From IMG/VR virus record IMGVR_UViG_2541047839_000005: DNA of 39,762 nucleotides; one strand, given 5' to 3'. Source of the DNA: a virus (taxonomy: Duplodnaviria; Heunggongvirae; Uroviricota; Caudoviricetes). Below are positions 12,897-28,783 of the stretch, in pieces; position 1 is the first letter of the stretch, and each line of letters starts with the position of its first letter. The position numbers and the translations under genes are program-made. The notes under the pieces are model-generated. The model did no database searches. It was not told the origin of the DNA and saw nothing but the letters and a program-made list of their open reading frames with translations.

Positions 12897-13826
12897 ATGG
12901 CACAACAGAGAACTACCTCCCTCAGATCCATACCTTTAGACTTAGATGTTAAGCAAGAGGCTGTCATTAACGGTATAGAAATGGGGGTACTCGATAACGG
13001 AATTCCGTACCTTACTCAGAATGGGTTGGCAAATGTTTGTGGTGTTCAGCGTTTGCGAATCAAGGAAATTACCGATGAGTGGGCTCAATCTGTTGAGAAC
13101 GGTATTTTCAAAAAAGGAAGAATGACTTTTATTGGTACATATCTTCTTAATGAAGGTTTTACAGATGAAAAACTTTATATACCAATAATTCGAAATGGTG
13201 TTGAGTACCATGCTTATCCAGATGTTGTATGCATGGCTATACTTGAATACTATGCCTTTGAAGCAAAACAAGCAGAAAGTGAGACTGCAATTAGATCTTA
13301 CAGAGAGCTTGCTAAAAAAGGCCTCAAGACATTTATATACGAGGCGCTAAAATATCAACCGGAGGACCCGTGGAGGCATTACCATGACAGAGTATCTTTA
13401 TTAAAAGATAAGGGAACCATACCTGATGGGTATTTCATTATATTTAATGAAATTGCAGGTATGATGGTAGATCTCATCAATGCTGGATTAGCGATTAATC
13501 AGCATACCGTACCTGATGGCAGTGTTGGTTCTTGCTGGGCGCGTCACTGGAAAGCAAAGGGGTTAGCAACAGAATTTGGAGAAAGAGTAGACTGTGAGCA
13601 TTATTACCCTGAAGATTTTCTTCAGGCAAGTTCCAATCCTCAGATCATTAATGCCTATCCTGATTCTGCATTGTCAGAGTTTCGTAGATGGTTTAAGCAT
13701 GAATATTTAACCACAAAGTTCCCACCGTATATTCTTAAAAAATCAAACGTGCTTCCTGGTGGTACAGAAGATGCTAATCGTCTGATAGAAGCTTTCAAAA
13801 AATCAGAGCTAGAAAATAAACCATAA
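12897..13826 (+). CDS. hypothetical cargo protein (309 aa), nin-region cassette
   Basis: ATG 12897 with AGGA about 6 nt upstream. AT-rich. Occupies the slot filled by ybcL/ybcM in K-12 DLP12. Family not recognised. Confidence 0.6.
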   Translation: MAQQRTTSLRSIPLDLDVKQEAVINGIEMGVLDNGIPYLTQNGLANVCGVQRLRIKEITDEWAQSVENGIFKKGRMTFIGTYLLNEGFTDEKLYIPIIRNGVEYHAYPDVVCMAILEYYAFEAKQAESETAIRSYRELAKKGLKTFIYEALKYQPEDPWRHYHDRVSLLKDKGTIPDGYFIIFNEIAGMMVDLINAGLAINQHTVPDGSVGSCWARHWKAKGLATEFGERVDCEHYYPEDFLQASSNPQIINAYPDSALSEFRRWFKHEYLTTKFPPYILKKSNVLPGGTEDANRLIEAFKKSELENKP

Positions 13827-15511: not shown

Positions 15512-15868
15512 ATGCGTGATATGTATGAAGTAATGGATCGTTGGGGAGCTTGGGCTGCTTCAGACAATAGCGGAGTGGACTGGCAGCCGATAGCGGCTGG
15601 TTTCAAGGGACTTTTACCTCATGGCAAAAAGTCACGGATTCAGTGTGATGATGACGAAGGCATCATGATAGACAGTTGTGTGGCTCGGTTGAGAAGGTAT
15701 AAACCAGAGGAATATGAGCTCATCATCGCCCACTTTGTTATCGGTATCTCATTACGCACTATTGCGAAGAAGAGAAAATGCTCTGATGGCACAATTAGGA
15801 AGGAACTGCAAACTGCAATGGGGTTTGTTGACGGCTGTTTAGCAATGTTAGCTTATAGTATGGCATAA
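15512..15868 (+). CDS. quuD: late-gene antiterminator Q (QuuD-like)
   Basis: MRDMYEVMDRWGAWAAS...WQPIAAGFKGLLP... resembles phage-82/DLP12-type Q. Position is between rusA/ylcG and the lysis cassette. GGAGAAAG Shine-Dalgarno. Confidence 0.7.
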   Translation: MRDMYEVMDRWGAWAASDNSGVDWQPIAAGFKGLLPHGKKSRIQCDDDEGIMIDSCVARLRRYKPEEYELIIAHFVIGISLRTIAKKRKCSDGTIRKELQTAMGFVDGCLAMLAYSMA

Positions 15869-17062
15869 AAAATAAAATAGATTTACTGCCGATTTTTCAA
15901 AAAAGACTGGGAACTGTTTATATCCAACGTAAATAAGGCCTCCATAAAACATGGCTGATGCGAGATATTTAACAGTTCTCATCCTTTTTTTAGCTTTATC
16001 AATCAAACCTGTAATGCTACTCTTAATACTATCTGCATTATCTTTGATTTCTTTATTTTCTTCAAACTTTAAATACTTATCGAAAGCGGACTCCACTCGA
16101 GAACGTAAGTTGTCGAATGTTTCATTGAATATCTCAATAGAAATGTAATTGACTTTTTTTATCATCCAAAGTCCTGCGATAATCAATATTGCTTCGGTTG
16201 TTTCATTAGCCTTCACTAAGCCACCAGCTGCTATTAATGCACCGGGAATAGTCAATGCTTTTGTCTGATTAGATGATATGAATTCGTTAATTTTACTCGT
16301 GAACTCAAGATTTTTCTCATCGAGTTCGTTAAGAATTTTATTTACAGAAAACCTCTTTGTGTAAATCTCATATAGTTCATCATATTTTTTCCTGACGAGT
16401 TCAGTAGAGTTAAGCAAGTCAAAGAAATTGAACGTACCATTTGCTTTAAATACTTCGTTTATGGCTGAGCGTATAACGAGCTTGCGCTCGCTTTTGTGTA
16501 AATCATTGATTTTTATTGTGTCGAGAAGCTCCTTTATAATTTCATATTTAAGAGACGAGTTCGATAAGCGATTAATCTCGCTATATTGTAAAAAATGCGT
16601 GAGTTCGACTGTATAACTTTTGTCTTCATTGGTGAAAAATAAGACAGAGCAGTCACTGTTATGATGATCAGCAATTAATGAAAGGATATCTTTCCACATA
16701 AAGAAAATATGGATTTTTTCGATGCTTTCATTCTTAGAAGTAGGGAGTATTAACGGCGTTCCGATGATATAATTTTTCGGAAGAGCGTTTTGGGTGTTTA
16801 CTCTAGACCAAAAAGACTCAACATTCTCATAAATTATAGCATCATCCCAAGATGAAGCTTGGCGATCTAGCCAAATTTCATTATTTTCGATGCAGGTTGT
16901 TGCCTTTTTATAACCTATAGATTGTAACAGTCTAATTATTTCAGAACTATTTACAATAACAATGCTTTCTTCAAGACTTATGACAGTGTAGTAGCCCTCA
17001 ACTCTGCTTGAGGCTCCGTTAATAATCTGCGCTAATCTTGATAAGTCATCAGCAATTGTCAT
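15848..17062 (-). CDS. hypothetical membrane protein, second gene of the Q-to-holin cargo operon
   Basis: 404 aa. About 260-aa soluble N-terminal region, then hydrophobic helices (ALTIPGALIAAGGLV, AILIIAGLWMI, LASAMFYGGLIYVGY). Start ATG 17062 lies 2 nt after the upstream gene's stop. Very AT-rich. Confidence 0.65.
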   Translation of the reverse strand: MTIADDLSRLAQIINGASSRVEGYYTVISLEESIVIVNSSEIIRLLQSIGYKKATTCIENNEIWLDRQASSWDDAIIYENVESFWSRVNTQNALPKNYIIGTPLILPTSKNESIEKIHIFFMWKDILSLIADHHNSDCSVLFFTNEDKSYTVELTHFLQYSEINRLSNSSLKYEIIKELLDTIKINDLHKSERKLVIRSAINEVFKANGTFNFFDLLNSTELVRKKYDELYEIYTKRFSVNKILNELDEKNLEFTSKINEFISSNQTKALTIPGALIAAGGLVKANETTEAILIIAGLWMIKKVNYISIEIFNETFDNLRSRVESAFDKYLKFEENKEIKDNADSIKSSITGLIDKAKKRMRTVKYLASAMFYGGLIYVGYKQFPVFFEKSAVNLFYFLCHTIS

Positions 17063-17064
17063 TA

Positions 17065-18239
17065 TTAGCTGTCTCTATATCTTTTGAGTTCATCATAATT
17101 TGCCTGACTCAATTTTATCACAATTTCGCATTTGTTGTCAGTGAGAATTACAGGCTTATTTGACTTTTCGTCTCCAATAGCTCCACGCATTATTTTCAAC
17201 TTAAAATTATTGTCGTTATCTGCCACTTCAATTGTAAGCGCGCTTTCAGCTGCTTTAGGAGTTGGTTCAAATTGAGGGTCAATCTGGAAACCATTAAGAT
17301 TAACAAAATCGACAAACGTTCCCTTACATTTGTGTGAATCAGTCAGGCATGAGTCAATTATTTTTGAAATATCCTCTATCTTAACGGACTTATTTCCGTG
17401 TTTATCTTTTGATTTTTTTCCAGTAAGGATTTAACTTCATTGTCAATAGTATCACGCAGTACACGACCGAGTGAGTTTTTACTAGCAAAAATATCTATAG
17501 CACTGAATAATTGCTGAATGCTTCTTTTATTGTCCGAATCATGTCGGCAACCTAATGAGTCTTTGAAAAAATCGCTTTTAGATTTACCTTGCAAGAAATG
17601 TACATATGAGTCACCCTTGTTTTCTGGATAACTGGCTTCGAATAAAGTTAAATCGAACATCGCAGCCTGCCGTAAGGCATCGGTATTAATTGGATTTAAT
17701 CTTGTTGGGGTCAACTTATCCGAATCAAAGTCATAGGCGCTTTGTTTATCAACCATTACGATTAGAAGTTTCCCCAAATCCTCTGGTTCGGTAGACTTAT
17801 AGTGGATGAAAACAACGCTCCCCCCCTGAAGTTGGGCAACTCTCGATTCGTTATTAGCATTATGTTTAAGCTTCTCTATTATAGCTCTAGATAAATCAAT
17901 GAATTCATTATTCTTATTAATGTATTTTTTTAGGATCGTAGGAATGGATGAAGGGTTGTGATCTGAGTCTAGGAAGTTATGAAATTTGTTTTTTCGGCTA
18001 AATTTTTTCTCAATTCTGGTTATGAATTCAGATGTGACTTCATTTTTTAGATCCCAAACTTCACCTAATCGATAATCAAATGCTCTTGAATCATTTTTTT
18101 CAAGATTTGCTGTTACAGCACCAATAGGAAAGTACGATTGTTTGCCCAGCACTACAACATGAGGCGTGGCACCGCATTTATCGCAAGCTACAGTTGGGTC
18201 GTCAAGAACATTGCCACATTCTAAACAAGTTATATCCAT
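17065..18239 (-). pseudogene. zinc-ribbon plus NdpA/YejK-like protein, reading frame broken at a homopolymer
   Basis: N-terminal CxxC..CxxC zinc ribbon (CLECGN...CDKCG). Central region resembles remembered nucleoid-associated YejK (GGSVVFIHY...LLIVMVD; YVHFLQGKSKSDFFKDSLG). The ORF stops at 17376, but a second frame stays open from the T7 run (plus 17411..17417) to TAA 17065..17067 and encodes a YejK-like C-terminus. Confidence 0.6.
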
Positions 18240-18357
18240 TATATATCCCGAATTATAAGAATGAATTTTTATGTGGCTGAAAATTCTATCAAAACACTAA
18301 CGCGTACGCAAAAAATATCGTAATCTGTTAAGTGTGCTCACTTCGCCACACAGCTTA

Positions 18358-18390
18358 AACCCGCCATCGAGCGGGTTTTGTCGTTTCTGG
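18358..18390 (+). terminator. terminator-like hairpin upstream of holin (possible tR' analogue)
   Basis: AAACCCGC-catcga-GCGGGTTT followed by TGTCGTTT, about 140 nt upstream of the holin start. Confidence 0.4.
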
Positions 18391-18530: not shown

Positions 18531-18857
18531 ATGCCTCATAACCCAAATACATGGCTGGAGTTGGTCCAGAGCTGGTGGCGTGGAGACACACCGCTGGGCG
18601 CAGTGATTATGTCGATTGTTATGGCTGGTTTACGTATTGCCTATTTTGGCGGTGGTGGCGGCTGGAAGCGAAAAACACTCGAAATTCTACTCTGTGGCGC
18701 TCTGACGCTGACTTTTGCATCCGCTCTTGAGTATGTCGGATGGCCTAAATCACTATCTGTTGCCATTGGTGGTGGGGTGGGGCTGATCGGTGTTGATGCT
18801 ATTCGTGGGGCTGCAATGAGAGTAATCGGTAACAAGTTTGGTGGCTCTAAGGAGTAA
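18531..18857 (+). CDS. holin (class I, three predicted TM helices)
   Basis: 108 aa with three hydrophobic segments and a charged C-terminus. Immediately precedes the endolysin gene. Confidence 0.7.
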   Translation: MPHNPNTWLELVQSWWRGDTPLGAVIMSIVMAGLRIAYFGGGGGWKRKTLEILLCGALTLTFASALEYVGWPKSLSVAIGGGVGLIGVDAIRGAAMRVIGNKFGGSKE

Positions 18858-21741: not shown

Positions 21742-25422
<3,681 letters not shown>

Positions 25423-25442
<20 letters not shown>

Positions 25443-27139: not shown

Positions 27140-27384
27140 ATGTCGATGTACACAACCGCCCAACTGCTGGCGGCAAATGAGCAGAAATTTAAGTTTGATC
27201 CGCTGTTTCTGCGTCTCTTTTTCCGTGAGAGCTATCCCTTCACCACGGAGAAAGTCTATCTCTCACAAATTCCTGGACTGGTAAACATGGCGCTGTACGT
27301 TTCGCCGATTGTTTCCGGTGAGGTTATCCGCTCCCGTGGCGGCTCCACCTCTGAATTTACGCCGGGATATGTCAAGCCGAAGCA
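27140..27384 (+). pseudogene. E: major capsid protein E, 5' fragment (codons 1 to about 82) truncated by island insertion
   Basis: MSMYTTAQLLAANEQKFKFDPLFLRLFFRESYPFTTEKVYLSQIPGLVNMALYVSPIVSGEVIRSRGGSTSEFTPGYVKPKH matches lambda E to the KPKH codons. The sequence then diverges into island DNA and stops at 27415. Confidence 0.85.
27375..27384 (+). repeat. attL core of the inserted island (AGCCGAAGCA)
   Basis: 10-bp sequence repeated at 38263..38272. Both copies sit exactly where identity to the lambda E gene ends and resumes. Confidence 0.6.
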
Positions 27385-27547
27385 CTTAGCATGGCTTTCT
27401 GAGGCTTTCGTGTAGTTGCTGGTTTTTACACTTAATCTTTTGATAATAAAGAATAAGTTTATCTGGTGCTTTCACTGAATTTTCCTCGTTATCTGTGTGT
27501 TGCAATCATCTCTGTATTGCAGCTTGTATTGCTTTTTGGGGCTAAAA

Positions 27548-28783
27548 ATGGCTGGCGAGAACAAACTGAGCGACAAAGCGCTTAAAGGATATCTGGGGAA
27601 ACCCAGAGAAAAGCAGATCACCATTGCTGATGGAAAGGGGCTTTCTATTCGTGTGAGTACTAAAGGGGCTGTGAGCTTTGTTTTCTTCTACAGGTTAGCA
27701 GGTGGCCGGGCTGCTCCGGTCTGGCTAACGTTGGGTAAATATCCTGATATGTCACTCAAACAGGCAAGGGAAAAGCGCGACGAGTGCCGTGGTTGGTTGG
27801 CTGACAAACGTGATCCGCGTATCCAGATTAAGATTCAGGCTGAAGAACGCTTAAAGCCGGTCACTGTGGAGGATGCACTAAATTACTGGTATGAAAATTA
27901 CTGTAAGGTGCGTCGTAAAACTCATGCTGTAACGCTTGGCAGATTTCGAAAGCATATCTTTCCCTATATCGGTCATTTGCCCGTAAATGACACTCACCTA
28001 TATGAATGGCTGGACTGTTTTGACCGAATTAAACGTAATGCACCAGTTATGGCGGCGTATGTTTTTTCTGACACTAAATTAGCTCTTCGTTTTTGTCGGG
28101 TACGCCAGTACGCGACGTGTGATGCTTTAAAGGATTTGCGCATGAGTGATGTGGGGCAGATTGCAGGTAAGCGGGATCGGGTTCTGGATGAAGCCGAACT
28201 CGGCCAGCTCTGGAAGGCAATTTTTGTCGAGCCTGATTTAAAACTAATGTCTGAATACACGCGAAAAATGTTTGTGCTTTGTACAGTATTTGGATGTCGA
28301 ATGAGTGAAGCCCGATTATCAGAATGGAGCGAATGGGATCTCGAAAGTTGGGTTTGGACTGTACCAAAAGATCACTCAAAAACTGGTGTTGAAATCGTCA
28401 GACCAGTACCTGAAATTCTACGACAGTGGGTAACGGATGTTCACGAAGAGACAAAACATACTGGTTATGTGCTGGGAAGTCTGCGAATTAGAGAAAGCGT
28501 AAGCAAGATTGGGGGGAAAATCGGTAAACGTTTGGGCCATGAAAAACAATGGTCACTACACGACCTTAGAAGAACGCTATCTACTCATCTAAGTGATCTC
28601 GGTGTTGAATTTTATGTAGTAGAACAACTGTTAGGCCATGCGCTACCTGGCGTGGCAGGTGTTTACAACCGGAGTAAGTTTATGGCTAAAAAACTGGATG
28701 CTCTGGAACTCTGGACTACATATCTCAATAGCATCGCAGGTGCTGATTCAAAAGTGATAATCCTCAAACAAAAGGTTGGTTAA
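27548..28783 (+). CDS. int: island integrase (P4-family tyrosine recombinase)
   Basis: About 411 aa from MAGENKLSDKALKGYLGKPREKQITIADGKGLSIRVSTKG (arm-binding N-terminal domain). C-terminal HDLRRTLSTHLSDLGVEFYVVEQLLGHALPGVAGVYNRS carries the catalytic motifs. Adjacent to the att junction. Confidence 0.85.
   Translation: MAGENKLSDKALKGYLGKPREKQITIADGKGLSIRVSTKGAVSFVFFYRLAGGRAAPVWLTLGKYPDMSLKQAREKRDECRGWLADKRDPRIQIKIQAEERLKPVTVEDALNYWYENYCKVRRKTHAVTLGRFRKHIFPYIGHLPVNDTHLYEWLDCFDRIKRNAPVMAAYVFSDTKLALRFCRVRQYATCDALKDLRMSDVGQIAGKRDRVLDEAELGQLWKAIFVEPDLKLMSEYTRKMFVLCTVFGCRMSEARLSEWSEWDLESWVWTVPKDHSKTGVEIVRPVPEILRQWVTDVHEETKHTGYVLGSLRIRESVSKIGGKIGKRLGHEKQWSLHDLRRTLSTHLSDLGVEFYVVEQLLGHALPGVAGVYNRSKFMAKKLDALELWTTYLNSIAGADSKVIILKQKVG

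What the first reader, a model, noticed from the sequence alone, without database searches (positions are those of the whole stretch)
17065..17420. Frame break at an A7/T7 homopolymer splits the NdpA-like gene
The annotated ORF stops at 17376, but a second frame, entered by a single-base shift at the T7 run (plus strand 17411..17417, AAAAAAA in the mRNA), stays open to the TAA at 17065..17067. That is 2 nt before the start of the downstream gene, and the second frame encodes a C-terminus resembling the YejK C-terminal domain (FKLKIMRGAIGDEKSNKPVILTDNKCEIVIKLSQ). The intact protein would be about 395 aa. The break is a sequencing indel, a recent inactivating mutation, or a slippery site used for programmed frameshifting or transcriptional slippage, as is common at A-runs.
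Basis: seen in the sequence. Interest (0 to 1): 0.55.

Follow-up and report, generated by a model that had tools for sequence, protein, structure and literature searches.

The report
Frameshifted allele of DS-1 defence gene
The broken gene is real: a prophage-borne anti-phage gene (DS-1A, a YejK-like protein) has lost one A from a run of eight A's, an ordinary but recurrent inactivating mutation and not a programmed frameshift.

Summary
The minus-strand ORF 18239..17376 (287 aa) stops at TAG. The -1 frame is then open from 17430 to TAA 17067..17065, 2 nt before the next gene's ATG. The homopolymer is T7 at 17413..17419, not 17411..17417. Adding one A gives a 391-aa protein identical to WP_000355468.1. 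That protein is DS-1A, the first gene of the two-gene DS-1 anti-phage system validated in the DefensePredictor study (Science 2026). The downstream 404-aa gene is identical to DS-1B (WP_000150292.1).

Of 107 complete E. coli records with the locus, about 99 have A8 (in frame), 4 have A7 and 4 have A9. In the large protein collection the A7 product is on 373 contigs, the A9 product on 97 and the intact product on at least 1000. A7 occurs on four SNP haplotypes and in three prophage backbones. Otherwise identical A8 alleles exist for three of those haplotypes.

Homologues down to 32% identity are continuous proteins of about 390 aa. The A-run is absent from the Raoultella, Klebsiella and Pectobacterium genes, and no stimulatory RNA structure follows it.

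Verdict: a genuine, recurrent replication-slippage frameshift at a mutational hot spot. It probably switches DS-1 off. It is neither recoding nor, most likely, an assembly error. Interest is low.

The parts
17376..18239 (-). 5' part of DS-1A as it now reads: 275 native residues (Met1-Lys275), then 12 out-of-frame residues (NQKINTEISPLR) and TAG. Identical to RefSeq WP_001588485.1.
   Evidence: On its own it matches only positions 3-277 of the 369-position NCBIfam NF053868 profile (349 bits).
17413..17419 (-). A7 tract in the mRNA (T7 on the + strand), the site of the 1-nt deletion. The functional allele reads GAA AAA AAA TCA (A8).
   Evidence: L002 and L003 have A8; the window and L001 have A7. 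A9 alleles were seen.
17065..17412 (-). 3' part of DS-1A in the -1 frame (residues 276-391 of the intact protein, plus TAA). It encodes the conserved C-terminal alpha/beta subdomain.
   Evidence: Invariant residues F309, F324, D341, G356, K362 and P363 in 18 homologues. The AF2 model places the break at the end of helix 258-277.
15848..17062 (-). DS-1B, the 404-aa partner gene, identical to WP_000150292.1. Its ATG lies 2 nt after the DS-1A stop in the intact allele and 311 nt after the premature stop in this allele.
   Evidence: (NF053869, 375 bits against a cut-off of 315).
17820..17826 (-). G7 tract in DS-1A (C7 on the + strand), a second length-variable homopolymer in other isolates.
   Evidence: P0007 (265 aa, 8 contigs) corresponds to a G8 allele.
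15512..15868 (+). Q antiterminator gene of the lambdoid prophage. It is convergent with DS-1B and overlaps it by 21 nt. It marks one edge of the cassette.
   Evidence: PGAP annotation of the identical stretch in L001; Pfam Phage_antitermQ.
18531..18857 (+). Lambda-family holin gene. It marks the other edge of the cassette.

Best explanation
The window carries a naturally occurring frameshift allele of DS-1A. DS-1A is the YejK/NA37-like 'nucleoid-associated anti-phage protein' that, with DS-1B, forms the two-gene DS-1 defence system. The system is carried as a low-GC cassette between Q and the lysis genes of lambdoid prophages. The functional allele has eight A's (Glu274-Lys275-Lys276-Ser277) and encodes 391 aa. 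Here one A has been lost, most likely by strand slippage during DNA replication. Ribosomes therefore leave the frame after Lys275, add 12 unrelated residues and stop 311 nt before DS-1B. Shown: the indel, its identity with the validated system, its recurrence, and the absence of recoding signals. Inferred: the truncated protein lacks the conserved C-terminal subdomain, translational coupling to DS-1B is lost, and this copy of DS-1 is therefore off or badly crippled. The A8 tract is the longest homopolymer in the gene and behaves as a mutational hot spot that repeatedly yields A7 and A9 alleles, which could in principle revert.
For: (1) Adding one A restores a protein identical to WP_000355468.1, and DS-1B is identical to WP_000150292.1. 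These two accessions are system D390 = DS-1 in the DefensePredictor supplement. When cloned in MG1655 it gave -log EOP of 7.6 against Bas1, 2.7 against Bas26 and 1.7 against Bas3 and T3 (PMC13092281). (2) NCBIfam equivalogs DS1_1 (451 bits, cut-off 330) and DS1_2 (375 bits, cut-off 315). (3) Of 107 complete E. coli records, 4 are A7, 4 are A9 and the remainder (about 99, by subtraction; 60 listed rows and 3 fetched loci inspected) are A8, annotated as a 391-aa CDS. (4) The exact A7 product is on 373 contigs, the A9 product (...EKKIKR) on 97 and the intact product on at least 1000. (5) A7 lies on four SNP haplotypes and in three prophage backbones. A8 alleles that differ only by the indel exist for haplotypes A, B and C. 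Haplotype B has a SNP 20 nt from the tract, so at least two A7 events are independent. A9 occurs on haplotypes A and B. (6) The window is 100% identical over 20,864 nt to a 2013 draft scaffold (L011). It differs from an A8 genome by a single gap in 6,963 nt, so the assembly is not riddled with indels. (7) Indel rates rise exponentially with homopolymer length in E. coli, and 8-9-bp runs are hot spots (PMC8510543). AAAAAAA is under-represented in E. coli genes (PMC4066793). (8) The same prophage also has a nonsense codon in its portal gene and a truncated capsid gene, so it is decaying.
Against: No reads were available, so the tract length in this particular isolate is not directly verified. 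Loss of function of the A7 allele has not been tested: the truncated protein still scores above the DS1_1 cut-off (349 bits) and DS-1B is intact. All A7 alleles are otherwise undecayed. That fits a recent event or continued selection on the rest of the cassette, and also fits a reversible switch. Recombination could explain part of the spread of A7 among haplotypes A, C and D.
Confidence: 0.8

Rival explanations
1. Adaptive phase variation. The A8 tract is a contingency switch that reversibly turns DS-1 off (A7 or A9) and on (A8). Lineages could then escape a cost of the system, such as autoimmunity or interference with prophage induction, and regain defence under phage pressure.
For: The tract length is polymorphic in both directions (A7 and A9) among near-identical alleles, on several haplotypes and backbones. 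Off alleles carry no further decay. About 7.5% of complete-genome alleles are out of frame at this one site.
Against: The tract is not conserved: A6 in Raoultella, interrupted in Klebsiella sp., absent in Pectobacterium. An A8 run or longer is expected by composition in about 18% of shuffles of this AT-rich gene. Eight bases is short for a contingency tract in a mismatch-repair-proficient E. coli. IS insertions and a G-run variant also disrupt the gene in other isolates, as expected for plain decay. No OFF-to-ON event was demonstrated.
Confidence: 0.12
2. Assembly or sequencing error. The isolate really has A8, and the consensus lost one base in the homopolymer.
For: Homopolymer under-calling is a common artefact. 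Some of the A7 and A9 complete genomes may be long-read assemblies. No reads could be inspected.
Against: The identical 287-aa product occurs on 373 contigs in 744 index blocks from NCBI, ENA and Logan, including two 2013 draft assemblies (GCA_000457065.1, GCA_000459275.1), and is shared by related isolates. The window shows no other indel against close relatives over 7-20 kb. The other broken gene in the prophage is broken by a base substitution, not an indel.
Confidence: 0.06
3. Programmed recoding. Full-length DS-1A is made from the A7 allele by -1 ribosomal frameshifting on A_AAA_AAU or by RNA polymerase slippage on the A-run, giving two useful products as in dnaX or IS911.
For: The zero-frame context GAA AAA AAU forms an X_XXZ_ZZN heptamer. 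The two frames overlap by 55 nt around the tract, and the fused product is the real protein.
Against: Most alleles and all distant homologues are a single ORF. The tract is not conserved. The 131 nt around the site fold no better than shuffles (z = -0.73), and no Shine-Dalgarno-like element lies upstream. Heptamers without a stimulator give only 2-10 times a background of about 0.05% in E. coli (PMC4066793). E. coli RNA polymerase needs at least 7 T's and more than 7 A's to bypass indels (PMC6260861). Selection against slippage becomes evident at about 9 nt (PMC1088944).
Confidence: 0.02

Closest known systems
DS-1 anti-phage system (working ID D390; DS-1A WP_000355468.1 + DS-1B WP_000150292.1), DefensePredictor study, Science 2026 (PMC13092281); NCBIfam NF053868 and NF053869
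   Same: DS-1B is 100% identical. DS-1A is identical once one A is restored. Same gene order and 2-nt junction. The prophage site between Q and the lysis genes recurs in the E. coli and other enterobacterial loci fetched here.
   Different: This copy has A7 instead of A8, so DS-1A is cut to 275 native residues plus 12 foreign ones. The mechanism of DS-1 itself is not described in the paper's main text.
E. coli nucleoid-associated protein YejK/NdpA (Pfam NA37 PF04245; PDB 9be2)
   Same: Pfam NA37 match E = 1e-23 over residues 64-376. The only significant structural match of the AF2 model is 9be2 (Foldseek E = 7e-15, 361 aligned columns).
   Different: 19% identity. Scores 81 bits against a 341-bit cut-off of the YejK equivalog. 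Has an extra N-terminal CxxC...CxxC segment. Is prophage-borne, low in GC, and always paired with a ~404-415-aa partner.
-1 programmed ribosomal frameshifting and transcriptional slippage at A-runs (E. coli dnaX, IS911/IS3 A_AAA_AAG sites; Thermus thermophilus dnaX A9)
   Same: An A-rich heptamer or tract lies exactly where the two frames meet, and the trans-frame product would be the full protein.
   Different: No stimulator. The two-frame layout is not conserved and the tract is not conserved. The majority allele is in frame.
Simple-sequence contingency loci that phase-vary restriction-modification and other defence genes (own knowledge: Type III mod genes of Haemophilus, Neisseria and Helicobacter)
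   Same: Homopolymer length changes toggle the reading frame of a defence gene, and both +1 and -1 variants circulate.
   Different: The tract has only 8 bases and is not conserved. The host is mismatch-repair proficient. The switching rate and any reversion are unmeasured.
Genes interrupted at poly(A) runs and partly rescued by polymerase slippage (Citrobacter rodentium tssM, PMC4256274; cases in PMC1088944)
   Same: A frameshift mutation inside an A-run leaves the downstream frame intact.
   Different: Published thresholds for E. coli RNA polymerase make appreciable rescue at A7 unlikely. No product data exist here.

Membership tests
DS-1 anti-phage system (NCBIfam NF053868 + NF053869) | First protein scores above the curated cut-off of the DS1_1 equivalog | tested here: met
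   Restored 391-aa protein scores 451 bits against a cut-off of 330, profile 3-369/369. The truncated 287-aa product scores 349 bits but covers only profile 3-277.
DS-1 anti-phage system (NCBIfam NF053868 + NF053869) | Second protein scores above the curated cut-off of the DS1_2 equivalog and lies immediately downstream on the same strand | tested here: met
   375 bits against a cut-off of 315. Identical to WP_000150292.1. ATG lies 2 nt after the DS-1A stop of the intact frame.
DS-1 anti-phage system (NCBIfam NF053868 + NF053869) | Intact, full-length DS-1A reading frame as in the validated construct | tested here: not met
   A7 instead of A8 gives a premature stop at 17378..17376. This copy is therefore a frameshifted allele of the system.
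DS-1 anti-phage system (NCBIfam NF053868 + NF053869) | Protects cells against phage | not testable with these tools
   Shown for the A8 allele in MG1655 (Table S7 of PMC13092281). Never tested for A7.
YejK/NdpA nucleoid-associated proteins (NA37) | Pfam PF04245 above the gathering score, and YejK-like fold | tested here: met
   84.5 bits against 24.6. Foldseek hit to 9be2, E = 7e-15.
YejK/NdpA nucleoid-associated proteins (NA37) | Orthologue of chromosomal YejK (NCBIfam NF001557 equivalog cut-off) | tested here: not met
   81.4 bits against a 341-bit cut-off.
Programmed -1 frameshift / slippage sites | Slippery heptamer or run at the frame junction | tested here: met
   GAA AAA AAU = A_AAA_AAU in the zero frame; A7 run.
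Programmed -1 frameshift / slippage sites | Stimulatory element (upstream SD-like sequence or downstream structure) | tested here: not met
   Fold z-score -0.73, with 48 of 200 shuffles folding as well. No SD-like motif is seen in the sequence.
Programmed -1 frameshift / slippage sites | Two-frame architecture and slippery site conserved among homologues | tested here: not met
   About 99 of 107 complete-genome alleles and homologues down to 32% identity are single ORFs. The tract is absent in Raoultella, Klebsiella and Pectobacterium.
Simple-sequence contingency (phase-variable) loci | Tract-length polymorphism among otherwise identical alleles, arising more than once | tested here: met
   A7, A8 and A9 on haplotypes A and B; A7 also on haplotypes C and D.
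Simple-sequence contingency (phase-variable) loci | Tract maintained or over-represented beyond what composition predicts | tested here: not met
   P(A8 or longer) is about 0.18 in shuffles of the gene. The tract is not conserved outside the E. coli/Salmonella allele.
Simple-sequence contingency (phase-variable) loci | High-frequency reversible ON/OFF switching within a clone | not testable with these tools
   Needs read-level heterogeneity data or fluctuation assays.

The most novel reading that the evidence does not exclude
The A8 tract of DS-1A works as a reversible ON/OFF switch, i.e. homopolymer phase variation of a prophage-encoded anti-phage system in E. coli. It would be maintained because DS-1 is costly in some settings. 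The A7 and A9 alleles seen on hundreds of contigs would then be the off state and not dead genes.
Probability: 0.12. Interest if true: 0.5.

Novelty: already known. Interest (0 to 1): 0.2.

Why it matters
The main value is for annotation and interpretation. This locus should be read as a frameshifted copy of the validated DS-1 defence system, not as a short 'nucleoid-associated protein' plus an orphan gene, and not as a recoding site. Defence-system surveys that count DS-1 by HMM hits would score this copy as present, because the truncated protein still passes the cut-off, although it is probably non-functional. There is a modest biological point as well. One 8-nt A-run accounts for most natural disruptions of DS-1A seen here (about 7.5% of complete-genome alleles). 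That makes it a simple natural ON/OFF series (A7, A8, A9) for testing what the C-terminal subdomain and the coupling to DS-1B contribute.

Tried and rejected
- The PADLOC-DB scan of both proteins gave no hits; the library dates from 2023 and predates DS-1.
With the window's own protein it found nothing, so distant DNA was fetched through the look-up of encoding contigs.
- The 'phages' collection has no match to the cassette.
The A8 contig count therefore stays capped at 1000, and A9 contexts come only from complete genomes.
- The promoter scan around the cassette found no more sites than shuffles (12 against 10.0 +/- 2.8), so no promoter is claimed.
- A Kyte-Doolittle scan of DS-1B found only one weak hydrophobic window, so no membrane-effector claim is made.
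- The idea that the downstream frame is expressed separately was rejected. Its first ATG is Met351 (KIMRGA), and the listed GTG ORF is only 53 aa.
- The idea that the frameshift marks an error-prone assembly was rejected. It is the only gap in about 7 kb against an A8 relative.

Full report
**Observation**

On the minus strand an ORF runs from ATG 18239 to TAG 17378..17376 (287 codons). It ends ...NEVKSLLEKNQKINTEISPLR*. The frame reached by a -1 shift (equivalent to adding one base) has no stop from 17430 to TAA 17067..17065. The next gene's ATG is at 17062, two bases later.

The open second frame is not chance. Upstream of the break that frame has 39 stops in 269 codons. Downstream it has none in 121 codons before its terminal TAA. 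Shuffles of the downstream segment give an open frame with P about 2.5e-5. Inserting one A gives a 391-aa protein. Its Pfam NA37 match (residues 64-376) and its NCBIfam DS1_1 match (residues 10-377, the whole 369-position profile) run uninterrupted across the junction.

**What the gene is**

The restored protein is identical to RefSeq WP_000355468.1. The downstream 404-aa protein is identical to WP_000150292.1. NCBIfam calls them 'nucleoid-associated anti-phage protein' (NF053868, 451 bits, cut-off 330) and 'anti-phage protein' (NF053869, 375 bits, cut-off 315). The newest PGAP annotations use these names.

The supplement of the DefensePredictor paper (PMC13092281) lists exactly these two accessions as transcription unit D390, renamed DS-1, a 'predicted novel defense gene' that was cloned in MG1655 and replicated. 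Its Table S7 gives these -log(EOP) values:

| Phage | -log(EOP) |
|---|---|
| Bas1 | 7.6 |
| Bas26 | 2.7 |
| Bas3 | 1.7 |
| T3 | 1.7 |
| T5 | 1.0 |
| T7 | 0.9 |

The main text mentions the 'YejK nucleoid-associated domain' only as newly implicated in defence.

An AlphaFold2 model built from 18 homologues (pLDDT 82.8, pTM 0.71) has E. coli YejK (PDB 9be2) as its only significant PDB neighbour (Foldseek E = 7e-15). Sequence identity is 19%, and the protein scores far below the YejK equivalog cut-off (81 against 341 bits). It is therefore a YejK-fold paralogue, not YejK.

The cassette has 34.9% GC against 47.1% for the window. It sits, antisense, between the Q antiterminator (15512..15868) and the holin gene (18531..18857) of a lambdoid prophage. 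Homologues in Salmonella, Raoultella and Klebsiella occupy the same Q-to-lysis site, and all, including the Pectobacterium locus (where no Q or lysis gene is called), keep the two-gene layout.

**Is the break conserved, an error, or a mutation?**

Tract length in the 107 complete E. coli records that carry the locus:

| Tract | Records | Notes |
|---|---|---|
| A7 | 4 | LWY24, EC17GD31, 2018-166, STEC2018-553 |
| A9 | 4 | PK12, 21AR0303, and CB6886 deposited twice |
| A8 | about 99 | by subtraction; 60 listed rows and 3 fetched loci inspected; annotated as one 1176-nt CDS |

Contig counts in the 15-billion-protein collection:

| Product | Contigs |
|---|---|
| Exact 287-aa A7 product | 373 |
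| 279-aa product ending ...EKKIKR, the reading predicted for A9 | 97 |

The A7 product is indexed in 744 blocks of the contig collection. It was retrieved in three different prophage backbones:
- lambda/DLP12-like, as in the window;
- an HK97-like head module with DUF968/KilA-N;
- an Stx-phage-like module with NanS-p/AraC.

Across the 2.4-kb cassette the A7 alleles fall into four SNP haplotypes:
- For haplotypes A, B and C, complete genomes carry alleles that differ from the A7 allele only by the extra A.
- For haplotype D, the nearest A8 alleles score about 17 bits lower than the exact A7 matches, equivalent to the one-base gap plus roughly two substitutions.
- Haplotype B has a SNP 20 nt from the tract, so its A7 allele cannot easily derive from the others by recombination.
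- A9 occurs on haplotypes A and B.

At least four independent length changes at this tract are therefore needed, and more probably six.

The window itself is 100% identical over 20,864 nt to scaffold KE700944.1 of GCA_000459275.1. Against an A8 relative it shows a single gap in 6,963 aligned bases, which is the tract. These facts argue strongly against a one-off assembly error. They identify the tract as a mutational hot spot. That agrees with the exponential dependence of indel rate on run length in E. coli and with the hot-spot behaviour of 8-9-bp runs (PMC8510543).

**Is it recoding?**

No. The family search returned 110 homologues at E <= 1e-10. Nearly all non-partial sequences are 362-423 aa (most 380-396) and cover 79-100% of the query, down to 32% identity (Enterobacterales, Pseudomonas, Oceanimonas, Vogesella).

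The region after the break contains invariant residues (F309, F324, D341, G356, K362, P363). In the model it forms an alpha/beta subdomain that starts just after helix 258-277.

The tract is lineage-specific:

| Host | Sequence at the tract |
|---|---|
| E. coli, Salmonella | GAA AAA AAA TCA |
| Raoultella | GAT AAA AAA (A6) |
| Klebsiella sp. | GAT AAG AAA |
| Pectobacterium | GAT AAA AGG |

An A-run of 8 or more arises in about 18% of shuffles of this A-rich gene. The RNA around the site folds no better than shuffled sequence (z = -0.73), and no Shine-Dalgarno-like element precedes it.

Published measurements point the same way:
- Unstimulated heptamers reach 2-10 times a background of about 0.05% (PMC4066793).
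- E. coli RNA polymerase needs at least 7 T's, and more than 7 A's, to bypass an indel (PMC6260861).
- Selection against slippage-prone runs becomes visible at about 9 nt (PMC1088944).

Any full-length product from the A7 allele should therefore be well below 1%. This is an inference.

**Consequence (inferred, not tested)**

The A7 product keeps residues 1-275, including the N-terminal CxxC...CxxC segment and most of the NA37 core. It loses 116 residues, about a quarter of the family profile. Translation now ends 311 nt upstream of DS-1B instead of 2 nt upstream, so any translational coupling is lost. The most likely outcome is an inactive or crippled DS-1.

The prophage is decaying in other ways. 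Its portal gene has an in-frame TGA at 24309..24311, and the capsid gene is truncated beside an integrase gene. DS-1A is also hit by IS1 and ISKpn26 insertions and by a G7-to-G8 change in other isolates. This fits plain gene loss under relaxed or fluctuating selection. The recurrent A7 and A9 alleles, which show no further decay, leave room for a reversible-switch reading, to which I give about 12%.

**Comparison and novelty**

The system (DS-1) and both proteins are already described and are in RefSeq and NCBIfam. The truncated product is also in RefSeq (WP_001588485.1). A homopolymer frameshift in a defence gene is a familiar event. What I did not find in the literature searched is any mention that DS-1A carries a length-polymorphic A-run. 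That is a small addition, not a new kind of thing.

**Verdict**

Interest is low (0.2).

Noticed in passing
window 17820..17826 (C7 on + strand, G7 in the DS-1A mRNA): A second homopolymer in DS-1A also varies in other isolates. P0007 (265 aa, 8 contigs) reads as a G8 allele. P0004 (230 aa starting at Met162, 87 contigs) implies a further upstream break.
   Followed up: partly
window 23841..25442 (+), stop at 24309..24311: The prophage portal gene has an in-frame TGA at codon 157, against an intact 533-aa gene in strain LWY24. The gene is called as two ORFs (363 + 156 aa) in the identical scaffold L011. It is a base substitution, not an indel.
   Followed up: yes
L011 1..1100 (window about 27140..28239): The capsid E gene is reduced to 91 aa and abuts a phage integrase gene. 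The prophage is therefore truncated or interrupted there and probably defective.
   Followed up: no
NZ_OZ547033.1 and NZ_CP182203.1 (related loci): DS-1A is interrupted by IS1 in one genome and by an IS5-like ISKpn26 in another. These are independent disruptions of the same gene.
   Followed up: no
window about 12897..13826 (+): A 309-aa gene in the same prophage is annotated 'BstA C-terminal domain-containing protein' in recent PGAP records (Pfam BstA_C). It may be a second prophage defence gene a few kb from DS-1.
   Followed up: no
window 15848..15868: The 3' ends of DS-1B (minus strand) and the Q antiterminator gene (plus strand) overlap convergently by 21 nt.
   Followed up: no
window 18357..18378 (+): A strong terminator-like hairpin (8 bp, 5 GC, followed by a T-run) lies between the DS-1A start and the holin gene. 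It may be the tR'-type terminator on which Q acts. If so, the cassette sits upstream of the late promoter region.
   Followed up: no
NZ_CP146675.1 and NZ_CP146678.1 (strain MS 69-1): One strain carries the DS-1 locus twice, on the chromosome and on a 64-kb record classed as a plasmid. Both copies are A8.
   Followed up: no
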